In this document: positions 2,034 through 50,121 of the stretch, piece by piece | Numbering within the stretch: position 1 is the stretch's first letter | How the letters are laid out: every line of letters begins with the position of its first letter | Translations under genes and position numbers: made by a program | IMG/VR virus record: IMGVR_UViG_3300042889_000724 | Location: 1 to 62,036 of that record | DNA length: 62,036 bases | Strand: one strand, 5' to 3' | Origin: a virus | Taxonomy: Duplodnaviria > Caudoviricetes | Notes under the pieces: model-generated | What the model saw: the letters and a program-made list of their open reading frames with translations, nothing else | What the model was told of the DNA's origin: nothing | Databases searched by the model: none

Positions 2034-2035
2034 AC

Positions 2036-9752: not shown

Positions 9753-9834
9753 GATTAAACAATATTATCAAATTTATAAATTTAAGAAGAAAATGAAAAA
9801 ACTTAGAAAGTTAGATCCGTTCATTTATGATTGA
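9730..9834 (+). CDS. 34-aa basic peptide ending DPFIYD
   Basis: Not in ORF track. MIKLLVSKIKQYYQIYKFKKKMKKLRKLDPFIYD fills the gap and overlaps both neighbours. Confidence 0.6.
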   Translation: MIKLLVSKIKQYYQIYKFKKKMKKLRKLDPFIYD

Positions 9835-21576: not shown

Positions 21577-22035
21577 TTATTTATTACGGATTCCCAACTC
21601 TTTTTCAGTTAAGATGATAAATTTCCATCCTCTATCTTCACAAAATTCAGTAGCAAATTTCCACTTTGCTTGGTTTACACCCCATTGCATAACTTCCTGT
21701 AGAAACTTTTTTGTTTTTCTAGCAGGTACTTTGGGTTCTTTAGTAAACTTCTGCGGTTTTACCTCAACCAGATACTTCTTCGTAACACCACTTTTTTCTT
21801 GAACCTTGATATAAAAATCCACGAAATATCTATGTACTCGATTATCTAAAGGAGAGATATACGGTATGGGTAACTCTTCAGATCCCCATTCCAATATGTT
21901 GTCGTTATTATCGCACCACTTCATGAACTTTAGTTCCCAACTGGAGCGATAAACAATATTGTTTGGATTCCCAATGTATTTCTTTGGATCCTGTATTTTA
22001 TACAGACCTTTCAAAGATTCCTTACCATAACTCAT
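21577..22035 (-). CDS. 4: Head completion nuclease gp4
   Basis: PKKY.G....IVYRSSWE, W.SEE..IPY.SP.D...HRYFVDF, EVKP, VNQAKW. Confidence 0.92.
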   Translation of the reverse strand: MSYGKESLKGLYKIQDPKKYIGNPNNIVYRSSWELKFMKWCDNNDNILEWGSEELPIPYISPLDNRVHRYFVDFYIKVQEKSGVTKKYLVEVKPQKFTKEPKVPARKTKKFLQEVMQWGVNQAKWKFATEFCEDRGWKFIILTEKELGIRNK

Positions 22036-29900: not shown

Positions 29901-31041
29901 TGTTAACATTAAATCTGCTGGAACTATTAATGCAGAAAGCACAGGAAACATCAGTTTGAAGGCGCCACTGGTTACGTCTTCGCCTATTGATACTGCAACT
30001 CTTGATGTAACAACAGCAAATATTACTACATTGAATGCAGGAACTACAAACCTGAAGGGAACACATAATAGTCCAGATGATACTACCGATATAAAGGGCA
30101 ATACCACTGCATCTATCACAGTTCCTGCGTCTGCTGGTTCTGCTGGATCCGCTGAAGATGCAATCTGTGCAGTATCTGCGAAACTTCCAGTAACATATGA
30201 ATTAGAAAAACCTGTATCCGTATCTGCACCACAACCTGTGGAACGCACCACCAATGATGTTGCTACTGGTTATGATGGTGAAAATGATATTATGAATTCC
30301 GATGGCGATGACACTCCTCCAGCAGAAGGCGATAATCCAGATTGCGTTAATACGGATGGCGATCCGTCAACCCCAGGAAATGATACTACTTCGCCCGATA
30401 CTGGTGACCCAGAAACATCAACTGGAATGATTCCGGATAAATCTGGTGTTGCAACTAAATCGTGTAATACAGTTATACTCGGAGGCAAATCGGTGCAATT
30501 AACACCATTAGTTGGAAAGTATGATGGTAATCTGCAACTGTCGCCCAATTTCAAACTTAAAGACCTCTGTGTGTTTCCAAGTAATGGATGTCCAGATGGG
30601 TGGAAGGGATTGCGCAAATCTCCATGGGGCCACACGACTGCAGACATTATCAACAACTTGCGTTGTCTGTGCGTAAACATACTTGAACCAACACAAGAAA
30701 AATGGGGTAAAATTAGACTTTCTTGTGGTTATAGAAGTCAACATCCAACTAAGGGTGGTAACGACAAGGGTGCCCATGGTTATGGTGCTGCGGCCGATAT
30801 CGAGGGAATTGGTGGTAGAAGCAAGAAAGAATTTATTAAAATCGCCAAATGGATCACCGAAAATTGTAAACACGATCAAATCTTACTCGAGTTTACACCA
30901 GGAAAATCTGGTAGCGGGTGGATACATGTAGGTTGGGTTTATAAAGATGGAAAACAACGTGCTGGGATGAGTGGAACTATGGTTGGACCAACTGGTAAGT
31001 ATATATCGAAAGGATATTTCAAACAACTTCCGACCGTCTAA
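26986..31041 (+). CDS. gp5 C-terminal part: beta-helix needle plus C-terminal M15-type peptidase; possible lysozyme-like N-terminal region
   Basis: YPFNKV..ESGHALEIDDTPGFERL...HRSGTF.E; 8-periodic repeats; LSPNF.L..CGYRS..HGYGAAADI..WIHV. Confidence 0.8.
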   Translation: MKKPDPFTPYFTTVDTINMGEEETIGSLTRDDVVTLLKEIQKAMTLQYYKKVYNFGQTSPGPGYNLLEVKGGQLTETGDQWKFTVVHADGEYGVYKLGVTQLIDAGIFGSDLNNWISNNLPNIPVPSKGNEEYESWYSRFVKYNRSKQTRIIEAPVNARNNALYYMLIYPINGGDPRFNVSVHPQLATKNSDGALTDHGDMHGGFIENPFLQDLAASNLLKFTYQLLLTSRAINESVDKKTLAGALALSLCWDIDSTQNYLRGNIKTDTSGVSAKYWFDVGYNAVALPAEKVATPGPIPGTTSIVKDEEVTPPPAVEPETPAGQTTVETVKTSNSPVEAKEVPKKIVKTINNGTITYELTSNGTISAKVVTSVKKTASVVDSSGFTTSVTNPFRFIQNGILTTLEQLGAETFKLSVVDKVENGRVLFEGSDANSATLASNAASKLNQIKAAERDSLHGRGSGGTWLLAIETVVEWLPNTYPSIITALTQLKTNDANAKTDDVESNKTIAFDDPADVETLIKQLDAKAQEADRSRLTFTYEACVSAKNEILTNFTTDTQTISSAISQATETSADGSSTSSVSTVQSSGAVTTVTTTTDADGTVTQTKTVEKVDAPLKDSSQNTLDNGIEHNTRSAEPTSQINSPTANALPTHEGTNVEKPIEKGFADPNKSYPKPDYVNKPDTNSLALGVNSKNINPDPRTSAGDKSSQSLGSSPAARNASRKRAVKMAGRSGSTWEQPATPYAAKYPFNKVFAGESGHALEIDDTPGFERLNIAHRSGTFTETGPDGTQVNKIIGNGYSIIEKDGFVLIEGNANVHIAGQCNVFIMNDTALTMHGKVSLDIHNDVNVNIGGSLGLSVQDGIYLRNEGDISVKNEGKVDAEITGAVTTKTAGKYNLTTNAGLNLTSKVNTHIKSGGAFFNHSTGNMNLCTDAEILAKSTGDINLKTAAMINQESTGNVNIKSAAMINQESTGNVNIKSAGTINAESTGNISLKAPLVTSSPIDTATLDVTTANITTLNAGTTNLKGTHNSPDDTTDIKGNTTASITVPASAGSAGSAEDAICAVSAKLPVTYELEKPVSVSAPQPVERTTNDVATGYDGENDIMNSDGDDTPPAEGDNPDCVNTDGDPSTPGNDTTSPDTGDPETSTGMIPDKSGVATKSCNTVILGGKSVQLTPLVGKYDGNLQLSPNFKLKDLCVFPSNGCPDGWKGLRKSPWGHTTADIINNLRCLCVNILEPTQEKWGKIRLSCGYRSQHPTKGGNDKGAHGYGAAADIEGIGGRSKKEFIKIAKWITENCKHDQILLEFTPGKSGSGWIHVGWVYKDGKQRAGMSGTMVGPTGKYISKGYFKQLPTV

Positions 31042-37568: not shown

Positions 37569-39182
37569 ATGACACTTCTTCTACGATCAGCAGGTCGCAC
37601 AGAAATAGCAAGAAGTCTTTATCGTGATATTTACAACGAGAACGACTTCTTCTATTTCTTTGTGGGCAGAACAACTGAGTGGGGTGATGAAGAATCACCT
37701 GAAGATCCAGTGGATTCTGTGCGTTATGCGAGCACGTCAAGTAGAAACATGCTGTTCGTTAAACGTATCCAATCAAGCGACACAGTTCTTATGATTCCTA
37801 GAATTAATTGGGCATCTGGAACTGTATATGATCAGTATGATGATAAGTACGGCGAACTAGATCCTGATGATGAAGTATATACTGCAAACAGTGGTGCTGC
37901 ATCGCTCAAAGATGCAGAATTTTATGTACTGACTGATGATGATCACGTCTATAAATGTATCTTCAATAATAGTAATGCACAAAGCACTACCAAACCCACA
38001 GGAACTTCCACTTCTGCAATTGAAACAGCAGATGGATATATTTGGAAGTTTATGTTTAAGGTTGAAGCATCAGATAAGACAAAGTTTCTTACGCCAGAAT
38101 ATATCCCTGTGAGAAAGATTGCAGGTTCTGGTGATCCTGCATTTGATGTTAATGGACAAATTGATACTATTACTATTACTAATGCTGGTTCTTCATATGA
38201 AACTGCACCAACCGTTATCATAAATGGTGATGGTACTGGTGCAGTTGCAACTGCTACTGTTAGTGCTGGTCTGGTTACTGCTATAACGATATCAAATTCA
38301 GGCGAAGGTTATAGTTTTGCGTATATTACATTTTCAGGCGGTGGTGGTTCTGGCGCTGCGGCTTCCGTTACATTGGGCGCTACTGAGTCTGGTACAGCAC
38401 AACAAAACGTCGAGAATGCTGCTGTTCCAGGAACAATTGATCGCATAGAAATTCTTTCTGGCGGTATCGATTACGTAGAAGGCGACGCCACCCTTTCAAT
38501 CATTGGTGATGGTTCTGGTGCAGAAGCAACACTAGAAATTGATCCAGATGATGGAGCAATTCTTTCAATTACCATAACAAATCGTGGTACTGGTTATACC
38601 TTTGCTGACATTACCATTGATGGCGCAGAAGGTACTGGCGCCAGTTTAATTGCAGTTATTTCACCAAGAGCAGGTCATGGTGCGAATGCGCAAAAAGAAC
38701 TGTTTGCAACTAATGTTGGATTCTCTGTCAATTTAACAAATGACACTGCTGATCTGTTCCTGAATAATGATTTCCGACAAATCGGATTGGTGAAAAATCC
38801 ATTAATTTTTGATACTAATAATAATTTTCAAGATTCTACGGGAACCTGCTGTTACATTATTAACACTTCATCTCCCGCTAGTTATGCCTTGGATGACGTG
38901 ATTACAACTGACAGTGGCGGTAAATTTATTGTTGTCCAAAAAGTTGATGCTAATAACAATGGATCATTAGAAAGTATATACCTTCTTCCTATAATTCCAA
39001 TAATAACATCTTCTAGTATACTCGCTAATACCACGCAATCCTTGACTGGATTGACTATAAATAGTGTGGTAGAACCTGAAATCGACAACAAAACAGGTGA
39101 AATTATATATCTGGATAACAGAGAATTCATCGTTCGTCAAGAAGATCAGGTAGAGAAAATTAGAGCAATTCTAAAATTTTAA
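37569..39182 (+). CDS. 8: Baseplate wedge subunit gp8
   Basis: YFFVGR...W, IPRINW..GT.YD.Y, FYV.T....VYKCI.N, DGYIWKFM, GHG.N...EL, FRQIGL, G.IIYLDNR. Confidence 0.88.
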   Translation: MTLLLRSAGRTEIARSLYRDIYNENDFFYFFVGRTTEWGDEESPEDPVDSVRYASTSSRNMLFVKRIQSSDTVLMIPRINWASGTVYDQYDDKYGELDPDDEVYTANSGAASLKDAEFYVLTDDDHVYKCIFNNSNAQSTTKPTGTSTSAIETADGYIWKFMFKVEASDKTKFLTPEYIPVRKIAGSGDPAFDVNGQIDTITITNAGSSYETAPTVIINGDGTGAVATATVSAGLVTAITISNSGEGYSFAYITFSGGGGSGAAASVTLGATESGTAQQNVENAAVPGTIDRIEILSGGIDYVEGDATLSIIGDGSGAEATLEIDPDDGAILSITITNRGTGYTFADITIDGAEGTGASLIAVISPRAGHGANAQKELFATNVGFSVNLTNDTADLFLNNDFRQIGLVKNPLIFDTNNNFQDSTGTCCYIINTSSPASYALDDVITTDSGGKFIVVQKVDANNNGSLESIYLLPIIPIITSSSILANTTQSLTGLTINSVVEPEIDNKTGEIIYLDNREFIVRQEDQVEKIRAILKF

Positions 39183-39197
39183 GAGAGAACATAAAAT

Positions 39198-42100
39198 ATG
39201 GCACTGAATTTAAATGTATCTCCATACTATGATGACTTTGACGATGCAAAAAATTTCAATCGAGTTTTGTTCCGTCCTGGATATGCAGTACAGGCACGCG
39301 AACTTACGCAACTACAAACTCTGTTGCAATCTCAAATTGGTAAATTCGGAAACCATATTTTCAAAAATGGTTCAGTCGTCCAAGGTTGTGAATTCAAACT
39401 GGATTCTCAGAGAGCATTCGTTAAGATCCTTGATGCTGGAGTAGATAATGACACACTAGTAGATTATGTTGGTGATACGGTAACTGGTGCAACATCAGGA
39501 ATCACCGCAGTAATTCTTGATGCAGCAACTGGTACTCAAGCAGAATCTCCTGATTTGAAAACACTATATCTTCGTTATACAAGCGGTGATGGATCCACGA
39601 CTGCGGTTCACTTTACAGGAGGTGAAACTCTTACTGTAACTTCCACCACTGCAGGCAGAAACGGTGATACATTTGTTGTTGATACCACATATGATGATGC
39701 AGAACCAACTAACAGTTATTGGGGTCTTGCTTCTGCGTTGACTGTTGATGATGGTATTGTGTATATTGATGGTAAATTCGTCAATCATGAAACACAAACA
39801 ATCATACTTTCCAAGTATTCCAACCTACCATCTGTAAAGGTTGGATTTCAGATCGTAGAAGATACAGTTTCTGCTGAAGATGATCAAACTTTACTAGATC
39901 CTGCGCAAGGATCTTTCAACTATGCTGCTCCTGGTGCCGACAGATACCAAGTTACGACTACTCTTGTTGCATATGAATCAACTGACACAATTCCTCCCAC
40001 GTTTAACCAATTGGTTGAAATCATAAGTGGAGAAGTCCAAAGAATTTACACTGCAAATATCTATGGCGAACTCGGCAAGAACATGGCCAGACGCACATAT
40101 GATGAGTCAGGTAACTATGCAGTAAGACAATTTCCTGTTCTGATTAAAGAGCATCTTAATGTTGACGATAACAATGGTTTACGAACACTAAACACTGTCG
40201 ATCCAGAACGTGGTGGCAGCAAAGATCTTCTTGCTATCGGTCTTGAAGCAGGTAAAGCATATGTTCGTGGGTACGAGCATGAAACATTCCAAACAGAATA
40301 CGTTGTTGTTCCAAAGGGACTTACAACAGTAAATCAACAAGAAATACCGATTAGCACTGCGTATGGTAACTATATTCTCGTAGATGAATTCTGCGGGATG
40401 TGGGATTTAAACACTGGCGATAAGGTCAGTCTTCGCAGTACAGCAGCAGGAGCAATTACTGCAACAACATTTTCTGCTACTGCTGCAGCGGGATCCGAAG
40501 TCGGTACTGCTCGCATAAAACAGATCGTATATGAATCGGGTACAGTTGGAACTGCTGCGGCAGAATATCGTTTATATCTCTATGACATTGCAATGTCAAG
40601 CGGAGATTTTAAGGATGTTCGTGGTATCTACTATAATGATACTGCCGATGGTCATGCCGATGTAGTTTTGACAGATGGTAATGCAGTTCTACAAGAAACA
40701 AGTTTCAACAAATCTCTATATAGAATTCCTGCTCGAGCAACGAAAACGATTGCTCCCAGTGCAGTTTACGATAACTCATTTATCTATACCAAAGAATTCG
40801 ATGGAGAACTTTCTGCAACTGGTGGCGTTACCATTACATTGTCTGGTGATGAAACATTCCCGTATGATTCGTTTACTGCAACGATCATTAAGAACAACTT
40901 CACGATGGTCTTGAAGGAAGCAGCAACAATAAACTCAGTTGCAAGACCGATCGGTTCGGTTATTGATCTTTCTGGCGCAGCATTCACAAAGAACTCTGCC
41001 CAATCTATTTCGATCGACCTAACAGGCAATGTTACTTCTGCACCAAAAACCATAAAATTGTATGTGAACGTTCAAACAGCAAATGCACAACCTGTTCTGA
41101 AGGTTCTTCGTGAAGATCGTTATGCAATCATCAATACGAATACTCACCCAGCAACAAATACTGGTACGTATTCACTTGGTCTGTCAGATGTTTATCAAAT
41201 TAAAAATATCTTTATTGGTGCCAACACTGATACTGATTCTGCAGTAGTTGCTGCTGGTGTAGATATTGCTTCTTCGTTTACTCTCGATAATGGTCAACGT
41301 GATAATGAATATCGCAATGCCAAGATCATCAAGAAACCTAGCGCACCGTCACTTACGAATAAGAAATTGGTTATCAAATTAGATTTCTTCACCCACGATG
41401 GTGCTTCTGCAGACGGTACTTTCTTTGTCGTTGATTCGTATCCGATTGATGATACTGGTGCAACCGCAGCGACAATTAAGACGCAGGATATTCCAATTTA
41501 TAGATCGCCGCTGACGGGCGAATCATTTGACTTGCGTGATACTTTAGATTTCCGTGTTCGTTATGCAGATTCTGCAGCAAATTCTACTACTGTAGGATCT
41601 GCAACAACCAATCCTACTGAGAGCACGACCTTAACTGCACCTTCTGTGGGTATCACAAATCCAGTTCCAACAGAACAGTTTATTACTGATTTAGAGTATT
41701 ATCTCGGAAGAACAGATCGACTGATCATTGACTCCGAAGGTGTGTTCAGTTCTATCTACGGAACACCGTCACTTACTCCTGGAACTCCCGCCGAACCTGA
41801 CAATTGCATGTCACTGGCAATCATAACAATTCCACCATATCCATCACTCGCTCCTAATGTTGCGAAGACTGTGAATCGCCCAGATTATGGTGTGACATTC
41901 CGAAGCATTGATAATCGTCGTTACACAATGCGCGATATCGGTGTTCTAGAACAACGAATTAACCGTCTTGAGTATTATACATCTCTATCGCTACTGGAAA
42001 AAGCGGCCAGCGATTTGTCCATACCAGATGGTTCTGGTCTTGATCGATTCAAAAATGGTATCCTAGTTGATGCGTTTACTGGGCATAACATCGGTAATGT

Positions 42101-45100
42101 TTTCGATAGTGCATATCATATTTCAATTGATCCAGTAAAGAAAGAGATGCGTCCTTTCTTCCATCTGGAAAATATTGATCTCGCGTTTGATTATACCAAC
42201 TCAACAAACGTATATAAGACGGGTGACTTGATCACTCTTCCATATGTAAACGTTGAGATGACTAAAAATACATCTGCCTCCAAACCAAGAAATTGTGTCG
42301 GGGAGTTACTCTTTAACTACATCGGAAATATGGAACTAGATCCACCAGTTGATAACTGGACGGATACCGCACGGCAACCAGATGTAAGCGTAAACTTCGA
42401 TGGAAATTACGATGCTTGGGAAAACATGGCAGATGCATGGGGAACTCAGTATGGTGATTGGCAAGATGTAGTAACTGGAAGAACCGCCACAGGACAATCT
42501 TCACAAACTGTCTCTGGTAATACGCAATTACGTGGTGATACGCTATTCCAAGAACAAACACAAGTTGTTACTACTACCACCGAACAACGTCAAACTCGTC
42601 AAGGTGTTTCTATTTCAGTAACTCCGGAAACACAATCTCAGAGAATTGGTGCTCGTGTAACGGACACTTCAATCATCCCGTTCATGCGGTCAATTGTCGT
42701 AACGTTTATCGCGAAAAGAATGAAACCGAATACTAGAGTATTCCCATTCTTTGATGGTATTGGTGTCGCGACACATTGTAGACCACTGAGTTTTGATCCA
42801 ACCACGGATATACCACCAACGGATCCTGCAGCGTATTCATCATATATCGATGGTACTTATGGTGATCCATTAATTACAAATGCTCAAGGTATTTGCGTAG
42901 GTCAATTTAGAATTCCAGCAGCGACATTCCGCACTGGTGATAAGAATTTCCGTCTCTGTGATGATCAATTTAACCGTGATGCATTCATAACAACTGCGTC
43001 AATGCAAACATGGTCAGCAAATGGATTGTCACAATCTGTTCAAGATACAGTCGTATCGACTCGTGTTGCTAACGTAGCAGTTAATAACGTTTCAGATTCG
43101 AGATCAGTATTTGAAACATCTACTACTCAAAATAGATTAGCAGATAGAAATGTTGGTGTTGTCCAAACAACAGTAAACAATACATTCACGACAGTCAATA
43201 ACGTAACAAATATTGATAATACTGTGACTAATACTACAGTAGTTAATGTTACGGAAGTTATCGATGTTGTTCAAGATCCTGTTGTTATTACACCAACTCC
43301 ACCACCAACACCAACTTCACCTGTCGTGGTTATTGCCGATACTCCAACTCCAAACCCTTGCGAACCAGTAACAACCTGCTGGGAAGAATCGGAATTCCAA
43401 ATTGGTGGTCTAGGTGGTTTCGGTGGTCTTATCAATGGAAGTATCGAAACAGTAATCGTACCAGCTGGATGCAACACAGTAAGTCCTTGCGCGCCAGCTT
43501 TTCGCGGACGAGATCCTATCGCGCAGACCTTCTACGTCGAAGGTATGCCATTCGGTTGTTATGTTACCAACCTTGATGTATATTTCAGAACCAAATCATC
43601 TAGTGCACCAATTACTCTCCAACTAAGAGAAGTGGTAAACGGATATCCAGGTAATAGAGTTATTCCGTTTGGTGAAGTCACACTAAATCCTGCTGACGTT
43701 TCTGTCAGCGAAACCGCTGCGACTGCAACAACATTCACTTTCCCTTCGCCTGTATATCTCCAGAACAATACGGAATACTGTTTTGTTCTTCTTCCCGCAG
43801 GTAATAATCCAGATTATAATATTTGGGTTTCTGAATTGGGCGAGAACGAACTCGGCACAGAGAATAGAATTTCTGAGCAACCCCATGTTGGTGTCCTATT
43901 CACATCCGCCAATGATAGATCATGGACAGCACAACAAGCAGAAGATATTAAGTTTACTTTGCGTCGTGCAAACTTTGAAATCAATACAGTTGGTTCGCTT
44001 GTGATGAAAAACATGGATGTCGACTTCCTGAAATTCGATTCGTTTACGAACGGAAACTTTGAAGCAGGTGATGTAATTCACGGATTCTCCTTCGATATTA
44101 CAAATGCGGGGACTGGTTATACGAACGGAACTATTGCACATACTCTGTCAGGTGGTGGTGCTACTACAAATGCAACTGTTGCTGTAACAATCGCAGGCGG
44201 ATCAGTAACAAATGTCGTAGTTACAAATCCAGGAGCAGGATATACTACATCAACTGGAACTCTGGCAGCGACTGTTGCTACTTCTGGTACTGCTGGTCAG
44301 TTTACTTGTGGTGCATCGTCGCTATCTGTTGGTGATACTGTAACAATTACTGGTACTCGTGCAGGTACAGGTACCATTACTGGATACACATCAGGAACTG
44401 TCTACAAAGTTTCTGCAGTAACTGGAACGTCACCAAATGTTACTGGATTCACTCTTCAAACTTCTGGTGGTGCAGCAATCGTAACTACTGCTGGTACGTT
44501 GACGGGGTTGACATATGTAACTGCAACTAATCCGACACTAACGATCTCAAGTGGTGCTGGTTCGAGTGCAGCAGTTACTGTTACGCTTAACAGAGGATTT
44601 GTTAAACAATATGATTCTCTATACAATGTTGGTAAGATTTTAGTAAATTCAGGTTCGTTCACTGCTGCTGATATTATTGGTAACGGTACATCTTATGCTG
44701 AAATTACTGAAATTGAGAACAAGCAACTTAATGTCCTTGAAACCAATATCGGTTCCATTGATCATACTCCTGCAACCATTGCTTGGTCGGTCGCACCAAC
44801 TGCAACTGGTGCAGGTGCGGGCGGAACTACGTTTGCGGGAATCAATTTTGGGCAGGAGTATGAGTTATCATATGAAGCACAAATCTATTCGTACTCAAAT
44901 GAACAGGCAAATTTGGGTGGGGATAAATCTCTGACAGTTAGAGCAGGTATGATAACACAAACATCAACTGTTTCGCCTGTAATCGATACTAGAAAATGTT
45001 CTATAATCGCAATTGCCAATGATGTAAATAATGATACTACCGATGAAGATGGAAACAACGGTTCCGCTGCTTCTAAGTATATCTCTCGTAGAGTTGTTCT

Positions 45101-45464
45101 TGATGACGGGCAAGATGCAGAAGATCTAAAGGTATATTTGAGTAATCAGATTCCAGCAGGTTGCGACGTTAAAGTATATGGAAAATTCCAAGAAGCAACA
45201 GATCCCTCAAACTTTGATGATCTTGCTTGGATTGAATTGGAGGCAGTAAATCCACCGCTTAACAACACAGCAAAATCTGGTTATGTTGAATATCAGTATG
45301 TCATACCTACAGCAAATAAAAATGCTGGAGTTCTTGAATACACAGTAGGAAGTGCTACGTACAGCGGATATAAAAGTTTCGCAGTAAAGGTTATTCCTCT
45401 TTCAACAAATACTTCTGTTGTTCCTCGTGTGAGAGAACTAAGAGCGATTGCATTACAGGTATAA
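39198..45464 (+). CDS. Large virion structural protein (DUF4815/VrlC-like)
   Basis: LNVSPYYDDFD..KNFNRVLFRPG.AVQARELTQLQ, APGADR, ARRTYDESGNY, RYTMRDIG.LE.RI..LEYYTSL, DRFKNG..VD.F, DP.AQTF. Confidence 0.8.
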   Translation: MALNLNVSPYYDDFDDAKNFNRVLFRPGYAVQARELTQLQTLLQSQIGKFGNHIFKNGSVVQGCEFKLDSQRAFVKILDAGVDNDTLVDYVGDTVTGATSGITAVILDAATGTQAESPDLKTLYLRYTSGDGSTTAVHFTGGETLTVTSTTAGRNGDTFVVDTTYDDAEPTNSYWGLASALTVDDGIVYIDGKFVNHETQTIILSKYSNLPSVKVGFQIVEDTVSAEDDQTLLDPAQGSFNYAAPGADRYQVTTTLVAYESTDTIPPTFNQLVEIISGEVQRIYTANIYGELGKNMARRTYDESGNYAVRQFPVLIKEHLNVDDNNGLRTLNTVDPERGGSKDLLAIGLEAGKAYVRGYEHETFQTEYVVVPKGLTTVNQQEIPISTAYGNYILVDEFCGMWDLNTGDKVSLRSTAAGAITATTFSATAAAGSEVGTARIKQIVYESGTVGTAAAEYRLYLYDIAMSSGDFKDVRGIYYNDTADGHADVVLTDGNAVLQETSFNKSLYRIPARATKTIAPSAVYDNSFIYTKEFDGELSATGGVTITLSGDETFPYDSFTATIIKNNFTMVLKEAATINSVARPIGSVIDLSGAAFTKNSAQSISIDLTGNVTSAPKTIKLYVNVQTANAQPVLKVLREDRYAIINTNTHPATNTGTYSLGLSDVYQIKNIFIGANTDTDSAVVAAGVDIASSFTLDNGQRDNEYRNAKIIKKPSAPSLTNKKLVIKLDFFTHDGASADGTFFVVDSYPIDDTGATAATIKTQDIPIYRSPLTGESFDLRDTLDFRVRYADSAANSTTVGSATTNPTESTTLTAPSVGITNPVPTEQFITDLEYYLGRTDRLIIDSEGVFSSIYGTPSLTPGTPAEPDNCMSLAIITIPPYPSLAPNVAKTVNRPDYGVTFRSIDNRRYTMRDIGVLEQRINRLEYYTSLSLLEKAASDLSIPDGSGLDRFKNGILVDAFTGHNIGNVFDSAYHISIDPVKKEMRPFFHLENIDLAFDYTNSTNVYKTGDLITLPYVNVEMTKNTSASKPRNCVGELLFNYIGNMELDPPVDNWTDTARQPDVSVNFDGNYDAWENMADAWGTQYGDWQDVVTGRTATGQSSQTVSGNTQLRGDTLFQEQTQVVTTTTEQRQTRQGVSISVTPETQSQRIGARVTDTSIIPFMRSIVVTFIAKRMKPNTRVFPFFDGIGVATHCRPLSFDPTTDIPPTDPAAYSSYIDGTYGDPLITNAQGICVGQFRIPAATFRTGDKNFRLCDDQFNRDAFITTASMQTWSANGLSQSVQDTVVSTRVANVAVNNVSDSRSVFETSTTQNRLADRNVGVVQTTVNNTFTTVNNVTNIDNTVTNTTVVNVTEVIDVVQDPVVITPTPPPTPTSPVVVIADTPTPNPCEPVTTCWEESEFQIGGLGGFGGLINGSIETVIVPAGCNTVSPCAPAFRGRDPIAQTFYVEGMPFGCYVTNLDVYFRTKSSSAPITLQLREVVNGYPGNRVIPFGEVTLNPADVSVSETAATATTFTFPSPVYLQNNTEYCFVLLPAGNNPDYNIWVSELGENELGTENRISEQPHVGVLFTSANDRSWTAQQAEDIKFTLRRANFEINTVGSLVMKNMDVDFLKFDSFTNGNFEAGDVIHGFSFDITNAGTGYTNGTIAHTLSGGGATTNATVAVTIAGGSVTNVVVTNPGAGYTTSTGTLAATVATSGTAGQFTCGASSLSVGDTVTITGTRAGTGTITGYTSGTVYKVSAVTGTSPNVTGFTLQTSGGAAIVTTAGTLTGLTYVTATNPTLTISSGAGSSAAVTVTLNRGFVKQYDSLYNVGKILVNSGSFTAADIIGNGTSYAEITEIENKQLNVLETNIGSIDHTPATIAWSVAPTATGAGAGGTTFAGINFGQEYELSYEAQIYSYSNEQANLGGDKSLTVRAGMITQTSTVSPVIDTRKCSIIAIANDVNNDTTDEDGNNGSAASKYISRRVVLDDGQDAEDLKVYLSNQIPAGCDVKVYGKFQEATDPSNFDDLAWIELEAVNPPLNNTAKSGYVEYQYVIPTANKNAGVLEYTVGSATYSGYKSFAVKVIPLSTNTSVVPRVRELRAIALQV

Positions 45465-45686: not shown

Positions 45687-46169
45687 ATGAGCACACTTAC
45701 CCTTAGATCTGTAAAGGGGACTCCGCTGACAAATACTGAAGTTGATACTAACTTCAGCAATTTGAATACAGATAAGTATGAATCTGGCGCTAGTCCTTCT
45801 TTTGCAGATTTAACACTTACAGGATCCCTGACCAAATCGGTTGCAGGCACAGTTACAGCAGCAGGAACCACTCAAGGTGATGCTACTGCGCTGACAAAAA
45901 CTGTCAACATGATCACAACAGCAACAGCAAATCAGGGTGTAAAACTCCCGACTGCTGCCGCTGGATTGACCATCAAGGTTATCAATACCACAGCAGTTAC
46001 CATTAAGGTGTATCCAAATACTTCAGATGTTATTGACGGTGGAACTGTCAACGTTGGTGTTAATCTATCACCATATTCATCTGTTGAATTGGTTGCACAA
46101 GATGCCGTAGATTGGTATCGCGTAACTAATTTAATTGTATATGACTCGAGTGGTAACAGGTTAAACTAA
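45687..46169 (+). CDS. Putative fibre-attachment / structural protein
   Basis: N-terminal LR..KG.PLT..EVD.NF motif seen in fibre-base proteins; TATAAATA at 45609-45616; AAGGA RBS. Confidence 0.6.
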   Translation: MSTLTLRSVKGTPLTNTEVDTNFSNLNTDKYESGASPSFADLTLTGSLTKSVAGTVTAAGTTQGDATALTKTVNMITTATANQGVKLPTAAAGLTIKVINTTAVTIKVYPNTSDVIDGGTVNVGVNLSPYSSVELVAQDAVDWYRVTNLIVYDSSGNRLN

Positions 46170-46170
46170 A

Positions 46171-48402
46171 ATGAACCCTCTAAAGGTCAAGGCAACAGGT
46201 TCCCCAATCACTTCTGCAAACATCAGCGGTTTGCAGACCATGACCGACGCAGAGGTAAAAAATTATATTGCCAATGTTATCACAGAAAAGTTTGCTTCAG
46301 TAACAGATGGTACTGGTACTGCTGAAATTAACATTACTACAAACGACAGTGGGTCTGGTACTTCAATCGGAACATTCGTCGATACGACAAGAACCGAATC
46401 TATCGGAACACATCCTGCTACTGGTGCAGTCTCTACAACAACATACACTGCTAAGCAGGTTACTGCTGCTGCGGTGGAAAGTATTACCAACAGACCATTA
46501 GCATGGGATTCTCGTCTAGAAGAAATGGTAGATGGTGACATTGATAGCACAATGGATCTCTGCGTTGAGGCGATGGTCGCAGAATCAACATATACTGCTG
46601 GGCAATATAAACTCCAAGCAACTGCACCATCGGGCGGAACTTGGGTTTCGCGGTATACATTAACAGATACAGCGCAAGGTGGAAACACTGTAACATATCT
46701 GTGGCAGAAAACAGTTGCATCTTCATCACCAACAGCGGATCTTACACCACTAAGAGCGTTTAATGGTGGTAACTGCAAGCAGATGACTGAGGCAGAAATC
46801 GAGCAGATGCTTCCAGTCTTTAGAAATAGAATTATTGAAACAGGTATCGGAACTTATAAAATCCAATCAGATGCGCCTAGTGGCGGCACTTGGGTTCAAA
46901 CAGGTAACACATTCACGGATACTCGCGAAGAAGTAACGCCACAGAATTATGCAGGAAACTTTACTGGAAATTTCACTGGTAACTTTTCTGGGAATTATGT
47001 CGGTACAGCAAACTACTCAGGTTCTAGAACATATTCTGGAAACTATCTTGGCGGTGGAACTTTTTCTGGAACTTATTCTGGTTCTAGAACTTATTCTGGT
47101 AACTATCTAGGTGCTGGAAACTTTTCTGGCAATTATTCTGGTTCAAGAACTTATTCTGGTAACTATCTAGGTACTGGAAACTTTACTGGTCCACAAAACT
47201 ACTCAGGTAGTAGAACCTATTCTGGTAACTACTTAGGCACTGGAAACTTTGCTGGCGGGGTAAACTACTCTGGTAATAGAACTTATTCTGGCACTTACTT
47301 GGGAACTGGAAACTTTTCTGGCGCACAGAACTACTCTGGTTCTAGAAACTATGCTGGTGCCTACTTAGGCACTGGAAACTTTGCTGGAACAATATCGTAT
47401 TCCGGATCTAGAAACTATGCTGCCAACTATCTTTCACCACCATCAACTTATGGTGGAGTATATGCTGGTTCGAGAAACTATGCAGGATTTTATGCAGGTC
47501 CAGGCACAAATTATTCTGGATTCTTTATGGCAGAAACTTATTCAGGAGGTCCATATTCTGGACCAATTGGATACTCTGGTACACCATACACAATATATCA
47601 ACCAACACCAAGTAGTCTAGATACAGTAGTTTATTTTGTGACGCCATACTTTAGTGGTCCAGGAGGATTCTACTCAGGTCCAGGATTCCAGGCAACACAA
47701 TTTATTCCTGGTGTCGGAAATTTTCCTGTATTCTATTCAGGCGGAGAATTCGCTGGTCCTGGTCCTGGATACTCAGGTTCCAGAAATTATACTCCAACTT
47801 TTCCAATTGCTGGATATTTGGGATTTTATTCAGGTCCAGGTATAAACTACTCTGGTTCTAGAAACTATACTGGTAACTATGCAGGTTCTGGAAACTTTGC
47901 TGGACCACAGAACTATTCTGGGGACAGAAACTATTCTGGTAACTACTTAGGTTCTGGTGGAAACTTTGCTGGACCGCAGAATTACTCTGGTTCAAGAAAC
48001 TATTCTGGTAACTATCTAGGTACTGCAAACTTTACTGGACCACAGAACTATTCTGGGGACAGAAACTATTCTGGTAACTATCTAGGTACTGCAAACTTTA
48101 CTGGACCGCAGAATTACTCTGGATCTAGACCATATTCTGGTAACTATCTTGGAACTTATGGCGGAGCAGCAAATTATTCTGGATCTAGAAACTATACTGG
48201 TAACTACGTAGGAAATTATGGTGGAGCAGTAAATTATTCTGGTTCTAGAAATTACTCAGGCCTATATAATGGACCAGCAAATTATTCAGGCAATTACTCA
48301 AGCGCATTCTCGGGTAATTTTAGTGGATCATTTTCTGGGGCAACAATACAAGCAACTAAAGAAACAGTGTCATCTGTTAAGTTATGGATAAGGACGGCAT
48401 AA
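46171..48402 (+). CDS. Putative fibre protein A with mirror-symmetric (Y/F)xG repeats
   Basis: About 258-aa N-domain and C-terminal ATKETVS..KLW.RT shared with the next gene; repeats span 46945-48339. Confidence 0.7.
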   Translation: MNPLKVKATGSPITSANISGLQTMTDAEVKNYIANVITEKFASVTDGTGTAEINITTNDSGSGTSIGTFVDTTRTESIGTHPATGAVSTTTYTAKQVTAAAVESITNRPLAWDSRLEEMVDGDIDSTMDLCVEAMVAESTYTAGQYKLQATAPSGGTWVSRYTLTDTAQGGNTVTYLWQKTVASSSPTADLTPLRAFNGGNCKQMTEAEIEQMLPVFRNRIIETGIGTYKIQSDAPSGGTWVQTGNTFTDTREEVTPQNYAGNFTGNFTGNFSGNYVGTANYSGSRTYSGNYLGGGTFSGTYSGSRTYSGNYLGAGNFSGNYSGSRTYSGNYLGTGNFTGPQNYSGSRTYSGNYLGTGNFAGGVNYSGNRTYSGTYLGTGNFSGAQNYSGSRNYAGAYLGTGNFAGTISYSGSRNYAANYLSPPSTYGGVYAGSRNYAGFYAGPGTNYSGFFMAETYSGGPYSGPIGYSGTPYTIYQPTPSSLDTVVYFVTPYFSGPGGFYSGPGFQATQFIPGVGNFPVFYSGGEFAGPGPGYSGSRNYTPTFPIAGYLGFYSGPGINYSGSRNYTGNYAGSGNFAGPQNYSGDRNYSGNYLGSGGNFAGPQNYSGSRNYSGNYLGTANFTGPQNYSGDRNYSGNYLGTANFTGPQNYSGSRPYSGNYLGTYGGAANYSGSRNYTGNYVGNYGGAVNYSGSRNYSGLYNGPANYSGNYSSAFSGNFSGSFSGATIQATKETVSSVKLWIRTA

Positions 48403-48405
48403 AAC

Positions 48406-50121
48406 ATGGTTTTAAGAAATAAATCTTCGGCGACCCCTGTTTCTGCTGTAAACTGGCAGGGTCTACAACAGATGTCAGTTGATGAAGTAAAGAATTACAT
48501 TGCACAAACTCTGACAGTTTCCTTTGGTGCAAACTCAGATGGTACTGGCACTGCTGAAATTAACATTACCACAAACGACAGTGGGTCTGGTACTTCAATC
48601 GGAACATTTGCTGACACAGATCGCCAAGAAGCAACAGGAACTCACCCAGCAACTGGTGCAGTTGACACTGTTACATACACTGCCAAACAAGTTACTGCTG
48701 CTGCGGCAGAAAGCATTACCAATCGTCCGTTGAAATATGACGATGGTATCAAAGAAATGACTGATGGTCAAATTGATAGTGAAATCTTAGATTATGCAAT
48801 CAATGCGATGATCACTGAGACCACATATACTGCAGGTCAATATAAACTACAACCAACTGCTCCATCAGGTGGTACATGGGTTGCTCGATACACATTAACT
48901 GATGTTGCCAATGGCGGAAACACCGTAACATATCTATGGCAAAAAACTGCTGCAACTACACTGTCAGACTCCAATCTTAAACCATTAAAACTAATTGATA
49001 CCAAAGATGTCAAAGAAATGTCATCTTCTGAAATCCTACAGATGCTTCCAAGTTTTAGAAACAGAATCATTGACACAGGAATTGGCACATATAAGGTTCA
49101 ATCTTCAGCACCAGTGAGTGGTACTTGGGTTGCGATGGGCGATGAGTTTGCTGACACCAGAGAGCAAGTAACACCACAGAACTATCTGGGTAACTTCTCT
49201 GGTAACTACCTTGGCACCTTCTCAGGTTCAAGAAACTATACTGCAGCATATGCTGGAACATATTCTGGATCATTCGCAAACAACTTTAGTGGTGGTTATG
49301 TTGGACCAGCAAACTATTCCGGAGCATATTCTGGAGCATTCGCAAACAACTTTAGTGGTGGTTATGTTGGACCAGCAAACTATTCTGGATCTTACTCACA
49401 GGGGTTCAGTGGAAACTATGTCGGTAACTATGTTGGACCAAAAAACTATTCTGGATCTTACTCGCAGGGTTTCAGTGGAAACTATGTAGGAAATTATGCT
49501 GGTTCTAGGAACTACGCAGGCAACTATGCAGGTAACTATCTCGGAACATACTCAAGCAACTTTACGGGTAACTATACACGAAACTTCACTGGAACATATA
49601 CTCCATTCTTTGGTGGTTTCCTTGGTCCTACAGGATACTCTGGTAACTATCTAGGAACTTTCTCTGGTAACTATCTGGGCAACTTCTCTGGTAACTATCT
49701 CGGTACCTACTCTGGTTCTAGAAACTATGCAGGTAACTATGCTGGAACATATCTCGGAACATACACAGGATTCTTCACAGGAAACTATCTCGGAACTTCA
49801 ACATATACTGGAACATATTCGGGTAATTATACTGGATTCTTTACAGGAAACTATCTCGGAACTTCAACATATACTGGTACTTATACTGGATTCTTTACAG
49901 GGTTTTATACTGGGTTCTTTGCAGGAACTGCAACATATACTGGTACATACACTGGGTACTTCACAGGAAACTACACTGGATATTATTCAGGTTCTAGAAA
50001 CTATGCGGGTAACTATGCCAGTAACTTTAGTGGAACGTATTCAAGCAACTTCTCTGGCGCAACAGTAATTGCGACCAAAGAAACTGTATCGACGATAAAA
50101 CTTTGGGTTCGCACTGTATAA
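48406..50121 (+). CDS. Putative fibre protein B, paralog of A, with mirror-symmetric (Y/F)xGx repeats
   Basis: Same N- and C-terminal segments as A; repeats span 49180-50058. Confidence 0.7.
   Translation: MVLRNKSSATPVSAVNWQGLQQMSVDEVKNYIAQTLTVSFGANSDGTGTAEINITTNDSGSGTSIGTFADTDRQEATGTHPATGAVDTVTYTAKQVTAAAAESITNRPLKYDDGIKEMTDGQIDSEILDYAINAMITETTYTAGQYKLQPTAPSGGTWVARYTLTDVANGGNTVTYLWQKTAATTLSDSNLKPLKLIDTKDVKEMSSSEILQMLPSFRNRIIDTGIGTYKVQSSAPVSGTWVAMGDEFADTREQVTPQNYLGNFSGNYLGTFSGSRNYTAAYAGTYSGSFANNFSGGYVGPANYSGAYSGAFANNFSGGYVGPANYSGSYSQGFSGNYVGNYVGPKNYSGSYSQGFSGNYVGNYAGSRNYAGNYAGNYLGTYSSNFTGNYTRNFTGTYTPFFGGFLGPTGYSGNYLGTFSGNYLGNFSGNYLGTYSGSRNYAGNYAGTYLGTYTGFFTGNYLGTSTYTGTYSGNYTGFFTGNYLGTSTYTGTYTGFFTGFYTGFFAGTATYTGTYTGYFTGNYTGYYSGSRNYAGNYASNFSGTYSSNFSGATVIATKETVSTIKLWVRTV

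What the first reader, a model, noticed from the sequence alone, without database searches (positions are those of the whole stretch)
46171..50121. Two paralogous proteins with mirror-symmetric aromatic-Gly repeats: probable out-and-back hairpin fibres
Seen: both proteins share a ~258-aa N-domain and a ~16-aa C-terminal segment (ATKETVS.(V/I)KLW.RT), and these bracket repeats with Tyr/Phe every 4 or 6 residues. The repeats are symmetric about a central unique tip. In protein A there are 8 G(S/N/D)R markers on each side; unit lengths run 20,20,22,22,22,22,21 outward and 26,22,23,22,22,20,20 on return. In protein B the 6-residue interruptions read SRN,PAN,PAN,PKN,SRN | tip TPFFGGFLGPTG | SRN,TST,TST,TAT,SRN, with 21 register aromatics between the SRN markers on each arm. 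Inference: each chain folds back as one very long antiparallel hairpin with a variable tip, the C-terminal strand completing the base domain, so the two arm lengths must co-evolve. I do not recognise this as a described fibre family.
Basis: partly seen in the sequence, partly recalled or inferred. Interest (0 to 1): 0.88.

Follow-up and report, generated by a model that had tools for sequence, protein, structure and literature searches.

The report
Phage fibres built as giant hairpins
Two neighbouring genes in the tail-baseplate region of an uncultured T4-like phage encode proteins that each appear to stretch one small beta-hairpin into a very long out-and-back ribbon zipped by tyrosines, an undescribed and widespread way of building a phage fibre of adjustable length.

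Summary
ORF A (46171-48402, 743 aa) and ORF B (48406-50121, 571 aa) share a 258-aa N-domain and a C-terminal strand. Between them lie Gly/Tyr/Phe repeats. The two arms are in residue-exact antiparallel register. In B, i+j=809 puts 35 N-arm register residues opposite Tyr/Phe or Arg over about 140 residues. In A, i+j=981 holds for about 125 residues. That sum equals the sum of two conserved Trp positions of the base domain plus 1.

The N-domain is three tandem modules. The repeats sit inside the terminal hairpin of module 3. AlphaFold2 docks the C-terminal strand on the base with pLDDT above 90, and its strand pairs give the same register.

Homologues (390 clusters, 100-1364 aa) keep equal, order-reversed marker numbers on both arms, from 0 to 12 per arm, while tips vary.

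The genes lie in a conserved T4-like baseplate module, and no Pfam, PHROG, NCBIfam or PDB sequence match exists.

Verdict: the out-and-back hairpin stalk is well supported. Virion location, oligomeric state and receptor binding are inferred. It is a new variant of known fibre principles.

The parts
46171..48402 (+). ORF A, 743 aa (P0001): base domain + long hairpin stalk + roughly 100-aa tip
46171..46944 (+). A base domain, aa 1-258. Three tandem modules (about 1-98, 99-186, 187-258) with the order strand-strand-helix-strand-strand-strand.
   Evidence: Module similarity. The secondary-structure pattern comes from the models of the paralogue B and of a relative; A itself was not folded.
46945..47481 (+). 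A outward arm, aa 259-437. Eight G(S/N)R markers; Tyr/Phe every 4 or 6 residues.
47482..47769 (+). A tip, aa 438-533. Non-periodic and rich in Pro, Gly and aromatics; probably a knob.
   Evidence: The aromatic spacing becomes irregular here. The same tip type occurs in P0005, P0007, P0008, P0013 and P0017, and other tip types occur in P0009, P0012, P0014 and P0015.
47770..48333 (+). A return arm, aa 534-721. Eight G(S/D)R markers, paired with the outward arm at i+j=981, shifting to 980 and then 975 towards the tip.
48334..48399 (+). A C-terminal strand, aa 722-743 (...ATKETVSSVKLWIRTA). It is the counterpart of the TVTYLWQKT strand of module 2 and completes module 3.
   Evidence: The confident docking was predicted for the equivalent strand of B.
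48406..50121 (+). ORF B, 571 aa (P0002): base domain + hairpin stalk + 12-aa turn
48406..49179 (+). B base domain, aa 1-258 (65% identical to that of A)
   Evidence: pLDDT above 90. Fold matches to beta-prism domains at Z 5.6-6.8.
49180..49599 (+). B outward arm, aa 259-398. The 6-residue steps are SRN, PAN, PAN, PKN, SRN.
49600..49635 (+). B tip, aa 399-410 (TPFFGGFLGPTG), an aromatic-Gly-Gly turn also seen in short relatives
49636..50052 (+). B return arm, aa 411-549. The steps are SRN, TST, TST, TAT, SRN. It pairs with the outward arm at i+j=809 along its whole length.
50053..50118 (+). B C-terminal strand, aa 550-571 (...ATKETVSTIKLWVRTV)
   Evidence: pLDDT 94-98. L566 and W567 are invariant in 132 aligned sequences.
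45687..46169 (+). Conserved 160-aa ORF directly upstream; function unknown. It accompanies the pair in related contigs.
   Evidence: Found in 25 of 26 related loci at 58-98% identity. No family hit.
37569..45464 (+). Context: gp8-like baseplate wedge subunit (37569-39182) and a 2088-aa DUF4815 protein (39198-45464)

Best explanation
A and B are paralogous structural proteins of the baseplate/fibre module of an uncultured T4-like myophage.

Base. About 258 N-terminal residues plus the last 20 or so residues fold into a base domain of three tandem modules. It is probably a pseudo-threefold beta-prism.

Stalk. The terminal beta-hairpin of the third module has been lengthened enormously. Its first strand runs out as the N-arm and turns at a variable tip. 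The C-arm returns in antiparallel register to the conserved ...KLW.RT strand.
- Both arms alternate strictly with period 2. One face carries Gly, Tyr/Phe and Arg. The other carries Ser, Asn and Thr.
- At the register i+j = (Trp of module 3) + (C-terminal Trp) + 1, Tyr/Phe faces Tyr/Phe every fourth residue, with Gly facing Gly in between.
- Each 6-residue step shifts the ladder by two, so it needs a partner step on the other arm. The SRN steps are staggered so that Arg faces Tyr. The PAN and TST steps lie exactly opposite each other.
- This is why units can only be gained or lost in pairs, and why stalk length can change while the base stays the same.

Tip and role. The tip (12 aa in B, about 100 aa in A) is the likely contact with the host surface. 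The two paralogues give two reaches and two tips.

What is shown and what is inferred.
- Shown: the register, the module repeat, the paired unit numbers and the gene context.
- Predicted by AlphaFold2: docking of the C-terminal strand and strand pairing near the base.
- Inferred: beta-ribbon geometry along the whole length (about 50 nm for B and 63 nm plus tip for A at roughly 3.3 A per residue, a recalled value), presence in the virion, host binding, and burial of the aromatic face by association with other chains.
For: Register.
- B at i+j=809: 31 aromatic:aromatic and 4 aromatic:Arg pairs.
- A at i+j=981 from residue 260 to about 385, then 980 and 975.
- Both sums equal the Trp-anchor sum plus 1.

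Markers.
- The k-th N-arm marker and the k-th-from-last C-arm marker sum to the anchor minus 5 in A (5 of 8 pairs exactly, then -6, -6, -11), in B (2 of 2), in P0013 (8 of 8), in P0007 (6 of 7) and in P0017 (6 of 7).
- Family-wide, 268 of 399 N-arm markers in 86 proteins have a partner at -5 +/- 1. In the histogram, offsets -5 and -6 hold 144 and 87 of 2041 pairs, and the next highest bin holds 53.
- Among representatives of 50%-identity clusters, 17 of 18 markers in 8 proteins have such a partner.

Paired unit numbers.
- 32 of 36 distinct proteins from the IMG/VR loci and the window have equal marker counts on both arms, ranging from 0 to 12 per arm.
- Arms measured from a shared tip motif correlate at r=0.93 in 10 proteins, with mean difference -1.5 and SD 6.7.

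Faces. In the B N-arm the register face is G25, Y23, F10, R3 out of 70 residues. The other face is led by S19, N18, A9, T8 out of 69.

Hairpin origin.
- Module 2 against module 3 scores 82, against 25.7 +/- 5.2 for shuffles.
- There is a graded series, from relatives of 287-291 aa with only a short hairpin to repeat regions of about 1100 aa.
- In 7 of 245 proteins the hairpin of module 1 is lengthened by the same kind of repeats.

Models.
- B: pLDDT above 90 for residues 1-260 and 550-571.
- P0128: mean pLDDT 89.3, pTM 0.81, with hairpin strands at sum 550.

Base fold. The same four beta-prism domains lead both fold searches at Z 5.6-7.1, and the next unrelated row is at or below 3.3.

Context.
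- gp48-, gp5-, gp6-, gp7-, gp8- and gp53-like genes surround the pair.
- The order gp8-like / DUF4815 / orf160 / A / B / orf151 / orf232 / orf225 is kept in related contigs.
- The eight window queries, including the A and B N-domains, match at 79-99% identity in L002-L020. Meanwhile A varies from 621 to 958 aa and B from 493 to 771 aa.
Against: - The arms themselves are modelled with low confidence: pLDDT 26-48 over residues 271-540 of B, and 42-63 in the short relative.
- Two cruder symmetry tests were weak. With shared 5-mers, mirror order was closer in 94 proteins and direct order in 70, out of 164 testable; B itself came out 'direct'. With best-window matching, rho was below 0 in 100 of 174 proteins, and B had +0.22.
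- The direct autocorrelation maximum is as high as the mirror one (24 against 23 in A, 30 against 31 in B). The arms are also tandem arrays.
- The mirror maximum near the centre is partly favoured by overlap. Only 90 of 199 proteins lie within 3 residues of the anchor sum, and 81 lie more than 10 away.
- 43 of 76 proteins with at least 4 markers have unequal counts; 25 of these differ by one. One such subfamily still shows a clean ladder at a sum shifted by one.
- The only GenBank relative, the 3347-aa protein of phage C48C1, has very long repeats and globular inserts. No evident equal arms were found there.
- The beta-prism matches have middling Z values.
- No experimental datum exists. None of the phage isolates listed in the searches carries the family, and its one GenBank record names no host.
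Confidence: 0.7

Rival explanations
1. The antiparallel pairing is between chains, not within one. Two extended chains lie head to tail, and the C-terminal strand of each completes the base domain of the other (a domain-swapped dumbbell). This would impose the same i+j rule.
For: The constant-sum register cannot by itself tell intrachain from interchain antiparallel pairing. The arms have low pLDDT as a monomer.
Against: Relatives with arms of only about 10-35 residues and a Gly-Gly turn must be simple hairpins, and they grade continuously into the long forms. AlphaFold2 folds the 329-aa relative as a monomeric hairpin with pTM 0.81. Tips are Pro/Gly-rich and non-periodic, or about 100 aa long, which suits a turn or a knob rather than a continued ribbon. 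Module 2 shows the equivalent intrachain hairpin.
Confidence: 0.08
2. The hairpin architecture is right, but the proteins are not tail fibres. They would be head or neck whiskers, a decoration, or a non-virion protein that happens to be encoded next to the baseplate genes.
For: No homology links A or B to any known fibre or baseplate protein. Nearness to baseplate genes is only circumstantial. The base resembles membrane- or lipid-binding beta-prism domains of pore-forming proteins (PMC6989145 passages).
Against: The position within a conserved run of baseplate and large structural genes is kept in related contigs. Length and tip vary strongly beside well-conserved neighbours, which is typical of host-recognition proteins. 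The distant relative in phage C48C1 lies among genes annotated as tail fibre protein, tail assembly chaperone and tail fibre assembly.
Confidence: 0.15
3. The repeats do not form a paired ribbon at all. Each arm would be an independent parallel beta-solenoid, a polyglycine-II lattice, or a disordered low-complexity region, and the symmetry would be a by-product of tandem-array evolution.
For: Units of 20-22 residues would fit a solenoid coil. Direct autocorrelation is as strong as the mirror one. The arms have low pLDDT. Weak fold hits of the low-confidence region to gp38 adhesins, Z 2.5-3.3.
Against: A residue-exact constant sum is tied to the base-domain Trp anchors in many proteins of different length. 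Reversed spacing order beats direct order in 5 of 7 proteins, with 2 ties. The strict period-2 alternation of faces fits extended strands, not the 3-residue period of polyglycine II. Gly makes up only 103 of 469 and 64 of 297 residues of the repeat regions, against the 39% reported for the Pam3 Gly-rich domain (PMC9608196 passages).
Confidence: 0.05

Closest known systems
Needle domain of the T4 long-tail-fibre tip, gp37 (PDB 2XGF)
   Same: An out-and-back fibre. [quoted passage not shown] Seven iron sites lie along the needle (passage in PMC6957217). Both are receptor-reaching parts of T4-type tails.
   Different: No sequence or profile similarity. The repeat regions of A and B contain no His at all (composition), so there is no His-metal core. 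Here the interior is an aromatic/Gly ladder. The stalk is 140-190 residues per arm, and it grows out of one hairpin of a single-chain three-module base, not from a trimeric collar. Trimerisation is untested. That each gp37 chain runs out and back is my reading of 'six-stranded' for a trimer plus recall of the original paper, which is not held.
P2 (MABP-like beta-prism) domain of perforin-2/MPEG1 and C-terminal domains of bacterial MACPF proteins (6sb1, 3tow, 2qp2, 8b6v)
   Same: A domain with pseudo-threefold symmetry made of three repeats, one of which carries an extended beta-hairpin that projects 45 A and makes the contact with the target surface (PMC6989145 passages). These four chains are the best fold matches of both models, Z 5.6-7.1 over 111-123 residues.
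   Different: The Z values are middling and there is no sequence similarity, so homology is not established. The P2 hairpin spans roughly residues 427-452, going by the reported truncation, is braced by disulfides and is basic. Here the hairpin has 140-190 residues per arm, no Cys, and an aromatic/Gly ladder. Each module here also contains a helix.
Glycine-rich (polyglycine-II) receptor-binding domains of gp38 adhesins and of cyanophage Pam3 gp24
   Same: [quoted passage not shown]
   Different: Those stems are GGGGxGG-type motifs with 39% Gly, stacked in a multi-layer lattice. A and B have Gly at about every fourth residue (22%), a strict two-residue alternation and a Tyr/Phe ladder. The only fold hits are weak, Z 2.5-3.3, and fall in a low-confidence region.
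Aromatic cross-strand zippers in designed beta-hairpins (tryptophan zippers) and aromatic/Gly pairing in antiparallel sheets
   Same: Stabilisation of a two-stranded antiparallel hairpin by aromatic residues facing each other across the strands on one face. This comparison is recalled and comes from no call.
   Different: Those are hairpins of about 12-16 residues. Here the ladder would run for more than 30 successive rungs in a natural protein.

Membership tests
T4 gp37-type needle (long tail fibre tip) | Sequence or profile similarity to gp37 or gp37-like tips | tested here: not met
   No Pfam, PHROG or NCBIfam family for A, B or their N-domains. A profile of 62 relatives finds no PDB sequence at E up to 1.
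T4 gp37-type needle (long tail fibre tip) | His-containing metal sites along the needle | tested here: not met
   His is absent from the 469-residue and 297-residue repeat regions of A and B (composition lists).
T4 gp37-type needle (long tail fibre tip) | Chain runs out to the tip and back, antiparallel | tested here: met
   Constant-sum register, paired units and AlphaFold2 strand pairs. This rests on sequence and prediction, not on a structure.
T4 gp37-type needle (long tail fibre tip) | Homotrimer forming a six-stranded needle | tested here: inconclusive
   One multimer job was run and gave no verdict. Stoichiometry remains open.
MABP / perforin-2 P2-like beta-prism | Three repeats giving pseudo-threefold symmetry | tested here: met
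   Module 2 against 3 scores 82 (shuffles 25.7 +/- 5.2). Module 1 against 3 scores 55 (28.7 +/- 5.3) in A. The strand-strand-helix-strand-strand-strand pattern occurs three times in both models.
MABP / perforin-2 P2-like beta-prism | Fold similarity to solved members | tested here: inconclusive
   VIA-align Z 7.1 (8b6v), 6.7-6.8 (2qp2), 6.2-6.4 (3tow), 5.6-5.8 (6sb1), rmsd 3.6-5.8 A over 111-123 residues, with the same four on top for two models. The tool's notes say Z under 8 can be a common arrangement. Foldseek found nothing at E up to 0.001.
MABP / perforin-2 P2-like beta-prism | Disulfide-braced hairpin projection | tested here: not met
   No Cys in the repeat regions of A or B.
gp38 / Pam3 gp24 glycine-rich (polyglycine-II) domain | Gly-rich motifs of the GGGGxGG type, about 39% Gly | tested here: not met
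   Gly is 103 of 469 residues in A and 64 of 297 in B. The period is 2/4/6, with Tyr/Phe every fourth or sixth residue.
T4-like (Straboviridae/Kyanoviridae-type) myophage baseplate module | Neighbouring genes for gp5, gp6, gp7, gp8, gp48, gp53 homologues | tested here: met
   PHROG and Pfam hits. The gp6-like protein is only 32-35% identical to the nearest deposited phages.

The most novel reading that the evidence does not exclude
The aromatic/Gly ladder is a self-sufficient, portable way to lengthen a beta-hairpin. A single chain would make a two-stranded ribbon tens to more than a hundred nanometres long. Its length would be set digitally by paired gain and loss of 20-22-residue units. The ribbon could be grafted onto different hairpins of the same three-module base: module 3 in A and B, and also module 1 in at least 7 relatives. 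That would be a new class of fibrous protein architecture and a new route by which phages tune reach and host contact, distinct from trimeric beta-helix, beta-spiral, coiled-coil and polyglycine-II fibres.
Probability: 0.35. Interest if true: 0.88.

Novelty: new variant of a known kind. Interest (0 to 1): 0.75.

Why it matters
Tail fibres decide which cells a phage can infect. Their known architectures are few and come almost entirely from cultured phages.

This family is abundant in metagenomes. The representative search found 390 clusters at 50% identity, and the homologue search found 394 proteins. It is present in only 1 of 50,697 deposited phage records and in no family library.

The family offers a simple, checkable sequence rule (i+j constant, with paired steps). 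The rule predicts structure, length and the allowed indels.

If confirmed, it would:
- explain how an uncultured clade of aquatic-type T4-like phages varies fibre length and tip while keeping the attachment domain;
- give structural biology an exceptionally long natural beta-hairpin held by a Tyr/Gly ladder;
- provide a modular scaffold of programmable length.

Tried and rejected
- Complex prediction with three copies of the 329-aa relative (alignment A2) returned 'no answer', score 0.00 in both runs, with controls not run. It says nothing either way about trimers.
- Foldseek against the PDB and BFVD found no match at E up to 0.001. The top rows (T4 gp11 at E 0.6; 'Tip attachment protein J' at E 0.002, TM 0.14) were not used.
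- The shared-5-mer test and the best-window Spearman test lack power where the arms are homogeneous tandem arrays. They gave only weak trends and gave 'direct' for B. I replaced them with anchor-based tests.
- A second tip motif, [FY]F[ST]GPG..Y, was not tip-specific. In 3 of 9 proteins it hit an arm, giving r=-0.90 overall. In the other 6 the N-side was longer by 11-51 residues, because the motif lies on the far side of a roughly 100-aa tip.
- The C-terminal 24 residues alone do not align significantly to the N-domain. The scores of 23 and 20 lie within the shuffle range. The equivalence with the second strand of module 2 therefore rests on the LW.(K/R)T motif, on position and on the models.
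- The search for a unique symmetry centre in the 3347-aa C48C1 protein failed, because periodic repeats give many centres.
- The search for related loci in genome contigs with alignment A1 found no relative: 12 pattern matches, none confirmed.
- A DNA-level palindrome was rejected, with 0 inverted repeats.
- Polyglycine-II, collagen-like and pentapeptide readings were rejected on periodicity.
- The original gp37 tip paper is not held.
- Supplementary files were not consulted.
- The first version of the autocorrelation script returned no answer. I re-ran it in a faster form.

Full report
WHAT IS THERE

The window is a 62,036-base viral record, estimated 37% complete. It comes from a T4-like myophage.
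- It encodes gp59-, gp32-, gp53-, gp48-, gp5-, gp6-, gp7- and gp8-like proteins.
- Its gp6-like protein is only 32-35% identical to the nearest deposited phages: a Synechococcus phage, Pelagibacter phage HTVC008M and Methylophilales phage Melnitz.
- Downstream of the gp8-like gene lie a 2088-aa DUF4815 protein, a 160-aa ORF, ORF A (46171-48402, 743 aa) and ORF B (48406-50121, 571 aa).
- A and B are the only two copies in the record. Their N-domains are 65% identical.

The repeat regions consist almost only of G, Y, S, N, T, F, A and P. They contain no His and no Cys.

Spacings between successive aromatics in the arms are almost all 4 or 6.
- B N-arm: 27 spacings of 4 and 5 of 6.
- A N-arm: 14 of 4, 19 of 6 and one of 7.

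Every spacing is even, so the arms split into two faces.
- One face is G/Y/F/R. In the B N-arm that is 61 of 70 residues.
- The other face is mostly S/N/T/A.

This is the signature of long extended strands.

THE ARMS ARE IN RESIDUE-EXACT ANTIPARALLEL REGISTER

Writing B's N-arm forwards and its C-arm backwards at the single sum i+j=809 gives, for residues 260-398 against 549-411:
- 31 aromatic:aromatic pairs;
- 4 aromatic:Arg pairs;
- Gly opposite Gly in between.

The 13 remaining aromatic positions in the stretch compared (from residue 238) are mainly the second residue of FF or YF doublets on the other face, plus a few in the base strands and the tip.

In A the sum 981 holds from residue 260 to about 385. 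It then changes to 980, a one-residue bulge caused by the 23-residue unit, and to 975 next to the tip. Two of 18 windows scored best one whole unit away.

The sums 809 and 981 are not free parameters. Each equals the position of the last Trp of the N-domain plus that of the Trp in the C-terminal LW motif, plus 1.

The pairing also explains the details.
- The two members of an SRN pair are staggered by four residues, so that each Arg faces a Tyr.
- The PAN/PKN steps lie exactly opposite the TST/TAT steps.
- The symmetry is therefore a dyad. Motifs read the same way on both arms but in reversed order, which is what antiparallel pairing of like units produces.
- The DNA holds only diverged direct repeats of 60 and 66 nt and no inverted repeat.

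THE FAMILY

Searches with the N-domain alone found many relatives.
- 394 proteins of 408-1301 aa among 4756 candidates.
- 390 representatives of 50%-identity clusters, of which 244 have E at or below 1e-10. The 150 listed are 100-1364 aa long.

Of the 267 proteins stored at that point, 220 have both the N-domain end and the C-terminal LW.(R/K) motif.

The region between those two features is always aromatic-periodic, but the repeat type and length differ widely.
- At one extreme is a bare hairpin in relatives of 287-291 aa.
- At the other is a repeat region of about 1100 residues.

The family has no match in any library or structure set searched.
- No Pfam, PHROG or NCBIfam family matches.
- No PDB sequence matches a profile of 62 members.
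- ESM Atlas neighbours are unnamed viral clusters.
- Only 1 of 50,697 deposited phage records holds a relative, at 28-29% identity.

TESTING 'THE ARMS MUST CO-EVOLVE'

Markers against the Trp anchor.
- Position sums of the k-th N-arm and k-th-from-last C-arm G(S/T/N/D)R markers, minus the Trp-anchor sum, are a constant -5 in protein after protein. Examples are A, B, P0013 (8 of 8), P0007, P0017, P0057, P0060 and P0146.
- Over 86 proteins, 268 of 399 N-arm markers have a C-arm partner at -5 +/- 1.
- In the histogram of all 2041 marker pairs, offsets -5 and -6 hold 144 and 87 pairs. No other bin exceeds 53.
- In cluster representatives, 17 of 18 markers in 8 proteins are matched.

Paired counts.
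- In 36 distinct proteins from the 26 related IMG/VR loci and the window, 32 have equal marker numbers on the two arms. The pairs are 0/0, 1/1, 2/2, 3/3, 5/5, 6/6, 7/7, 8/8, 11/11 and 12/12.
- Two long A forms shift once, from -5 to +3, and then stay constant for 8-9 pairs.

Spacing order.
- Where spacings differ within an arm, the reversed order of the other arm fits better than the direct order in 5 of 7 proteins. The other 2 are palindromes. Permutation fractions are 0.005-0.043.

Arms measured from the tip.
- Arms measured from a shared tip motif correlate at r=0.93 (n=10), with mean difference -1.5 residues.

Tips.
- Tip types differ among proteins whose N-domains are 90-98% identical to that of A.

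Results that weaken the case should be stated as plainly.
- 43 of 76 proteins with at least 4 markers have unequal counts; 25 differ by one. One such subfamily, inspected directly, still gives a clean ladder with Arg:Tyr pairs at a sum shifted by one, and the extra markers are doubled near the tip.
- The mirror-autocorrelation peak lies within 3 residues of the anchor sum in only 90 of 199 proteins. It exceeds gap-order shuffles by z>3 in 76 and by z>2 in 111.
- Two cruder tests were weak.
- These proteins are related to one another, so counts of proteins are not counts of independent events.

WHERE THE HAIRPIN COMES FROM

The N-domain is three tandem modules of about 90 residues.
- Module 2 against module 3 scores 82 (shuffles 25.7 +/- 5.2).
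- Module 1 against module 3 scores 55 (28.7 +/- 5.3).
- Both models show the same strand-strand-helix-strand-strand-strand order three times.

Module 2 ends in a short hairpin: GTWVSRYTLTDT, a turn, then TVTYLWQKT.

Module 3 begins its hairpin the same way (GTWVQTGNTFTDT). Its second strand (…VKLWIRT) comes only after the whole repeat region. The stalk is therefore an enormous elongation of one hairpin of the base.

In at least 7 of 245 stored proteins the module-1 hairpin is lengthened by the same kind of aromatic-Gly repeats. In 4 of these the script found the F(F/Y)GGF turn motif that closes the B hairpin. The device has thus been used at two equivalent sites.

STRUCTURE PREDICTION

AlphaFold2 on B with 132 aligned sequences:
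- pLDDT above 90 for residues 1-260 and 550-571;
- pLDDT 26-48 for the arms;
- long strands 248-267, 270-290, 517-537 and 542-569, whose ends sum to 807-809.

AlphaFold2 on the 329-aa relative:
- mean pLDDT 89.3 and pTM 0.81;
- a hairpin with strands 258-266 and 284-292, which sum to 550. Its Trp anchors sum to 549.

The models were made without any knowledge of my register analysis, and they agree with it to within two residues.

Both models have the same four best fold matches:
- the C-terminal domains of Mp2Ba1 and of a bacterial MACPF protein;
- the MABP domain of MVB12B;
- the P2 domain of perforin-2.

These score Z 5.6-7.1 over 111-123 residues, with the next unrelated rows at or below 3.3. 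The values are middling. I take them as support for a pseudo-threefold beta-prism-like base, not as proof of kinship.

The P2 domain is a useful analogue. It has pseudo-threefold symmetry and a 45 A hairpin that makes the membrane contact (PMC6989145 passages).

FUNCTION

The run gp8-like / DUF4815 / orf160 / A / B / orf151 / orf232 / orf225 is kept in the related loci.
- 22 of 26 loci carry both paralogues.
- Two are cut by the end of the locus, and one by the start of its contig.
- One has a single copy.

The eight window queries, including the A and B N-domains, match at 79-99% identity in loci L002-L020. Meanwhile A ranges from 621 to 958 aa and B from 493 to 771 aa. This pattern is typical of host-recognition proteins.

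The distant relative in phage C48C1 sits among genes annotated as tail fibre and tail-fibre assembly.

I therefore read A and B as baseplate-associated fibres whose tips touch the host. This is an inference from context. No virion data exist for the family.

A lone two-stranded ribbon of 50-60 nm would be unprecedented. The aromatic face is therefore probably buried against other hairpins, perhaps three chains forming a six-stranded needle. The T4 gp37 tip is described that way (PMC7291167 passage). The stoichiometry is open.

COMPARISON WITH KNOWN SYSTEMS AND NOVELTY

The design shares features with three known systems.
- With the gp37 needle it shares the out-and-back principle.
- With the perforin-2 P2 domain it shares the 'prism with one long hairpin' design.
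- With the gp38 and Pam3 gp24 Gly-rich domains it shares the conserved stem with a variable tip (PMC9608196 passages).

It fails the defining features of each as a family.
- No sequence similarity.
- No His-metal sites.
- No disulfides.
- No polyglycine motifs.

Five full-text searches found no description of such a fibre (for gp37). The search terms covered cyanophage and phage fibres, Gly- and Tyr-rich repeats, aromatic or tyrosine ladders, beta-ribbons, and beta-prisms with extended hairpins. I saw only listings and passages, and supplements were closed.

I class it as a new variant of a known kind, a phage fibre with out-and-back topology, built on a new family and a new stabilising principle.

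OPEN POINTS

- Oligomeric state.
- Virion location.
- Whether A and B interact.
- How paired unit changes arise.
- Whether very long or domain-interrupted relatives such as the 3347-aa C48C1 protein obey the same equal-arm rule. No clear centre was found there.

Noticed in passing
window 717-8952 (+), with 8949-9752 and 9827-11254: Six tandem ORFs that hit the radical-SAM family (717-2033, 2617-4041, 4022-5359, 5341-6534, 6518-7810, 7792-8952). Four score above Pfam's cut-off and two below it. Two also carry a SPASM domain. They are interrupted only by a 194-aa ORF, and are followed by a 267-aa ORF and a Nol-like carbamoyltransferase. This is an unusual modification or biosynthesis cluster for a T4-like phage.
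   Followed up: no
P0190, P0218, P0222, P0226, P0230, P0231, P0239 (distant family members): In these relatives the hairpin of module 1 of the base domain is also lengthened by aromatic-Gly repeats. The script flagged an F(F/Y)GGF turn in 4 of them. One base can therefore carry two such stalks.
   Followed up: partly
L028 (GenBank OQ984149.1, phage C48C1) 112-10155: A 3347-aa 'hypothetical protein' is the only family member in 50,697 deposited phage records. It has the N-domain, more than 1000 residues of period-4/8 Tyr/Arg/Thr repeats, Trp-rich globular inserts and a C-terminal ...TLYVRVA strand. The arms are not evidently equal.
   Followed up: partly
L002-L025 and window 46171-50121: The lengths of the A and B paralogues in the same contig rise together. 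r=0.88 for 15 distinct pairs when one divergent group (1022/452 aa) is left out; r=0.42 and p=0.11 with it included. The contigs are related, so this is only a hint that the two stalks are matched in reach.
   Followed up: partly
window 45687-46169 (+): A 160-aa ORF directly upstream of A is kept at 58-98% identity in 25 of 26 related loci. It has no family hit. Its C-terminal half weakly resembles hypothetical proteins of a few jumbo phages. It could be an adaptor or assembly factor for A and B.
   Followed up: partly
window 25938-26975 and 26986-31041 (+): There are two adjacent gp5-related genes. The first is a 345-aa protein with a Gp5 OB domain plus a glycoside hydrolase 19 (chitinase-like) domain. 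The second is a 1351-aa protein with hub and tail-lysozyme and endolysin-like parts.
   Followed up: no
window 21577-22035 (-): A 152-aa ORF with a TnsA-like endonuclease N-terminal domain sits between baseplate genes. It may be a homing or mobile endonuclease.
   Followed up: no
window 17026-19293 (-): A 755-aa ORF on the minus strand between the gp32-like and gp53-like genes has only a weak tail-fibre PHROG hit (E 8e-5) and no Pfam family.
   Followed up: no
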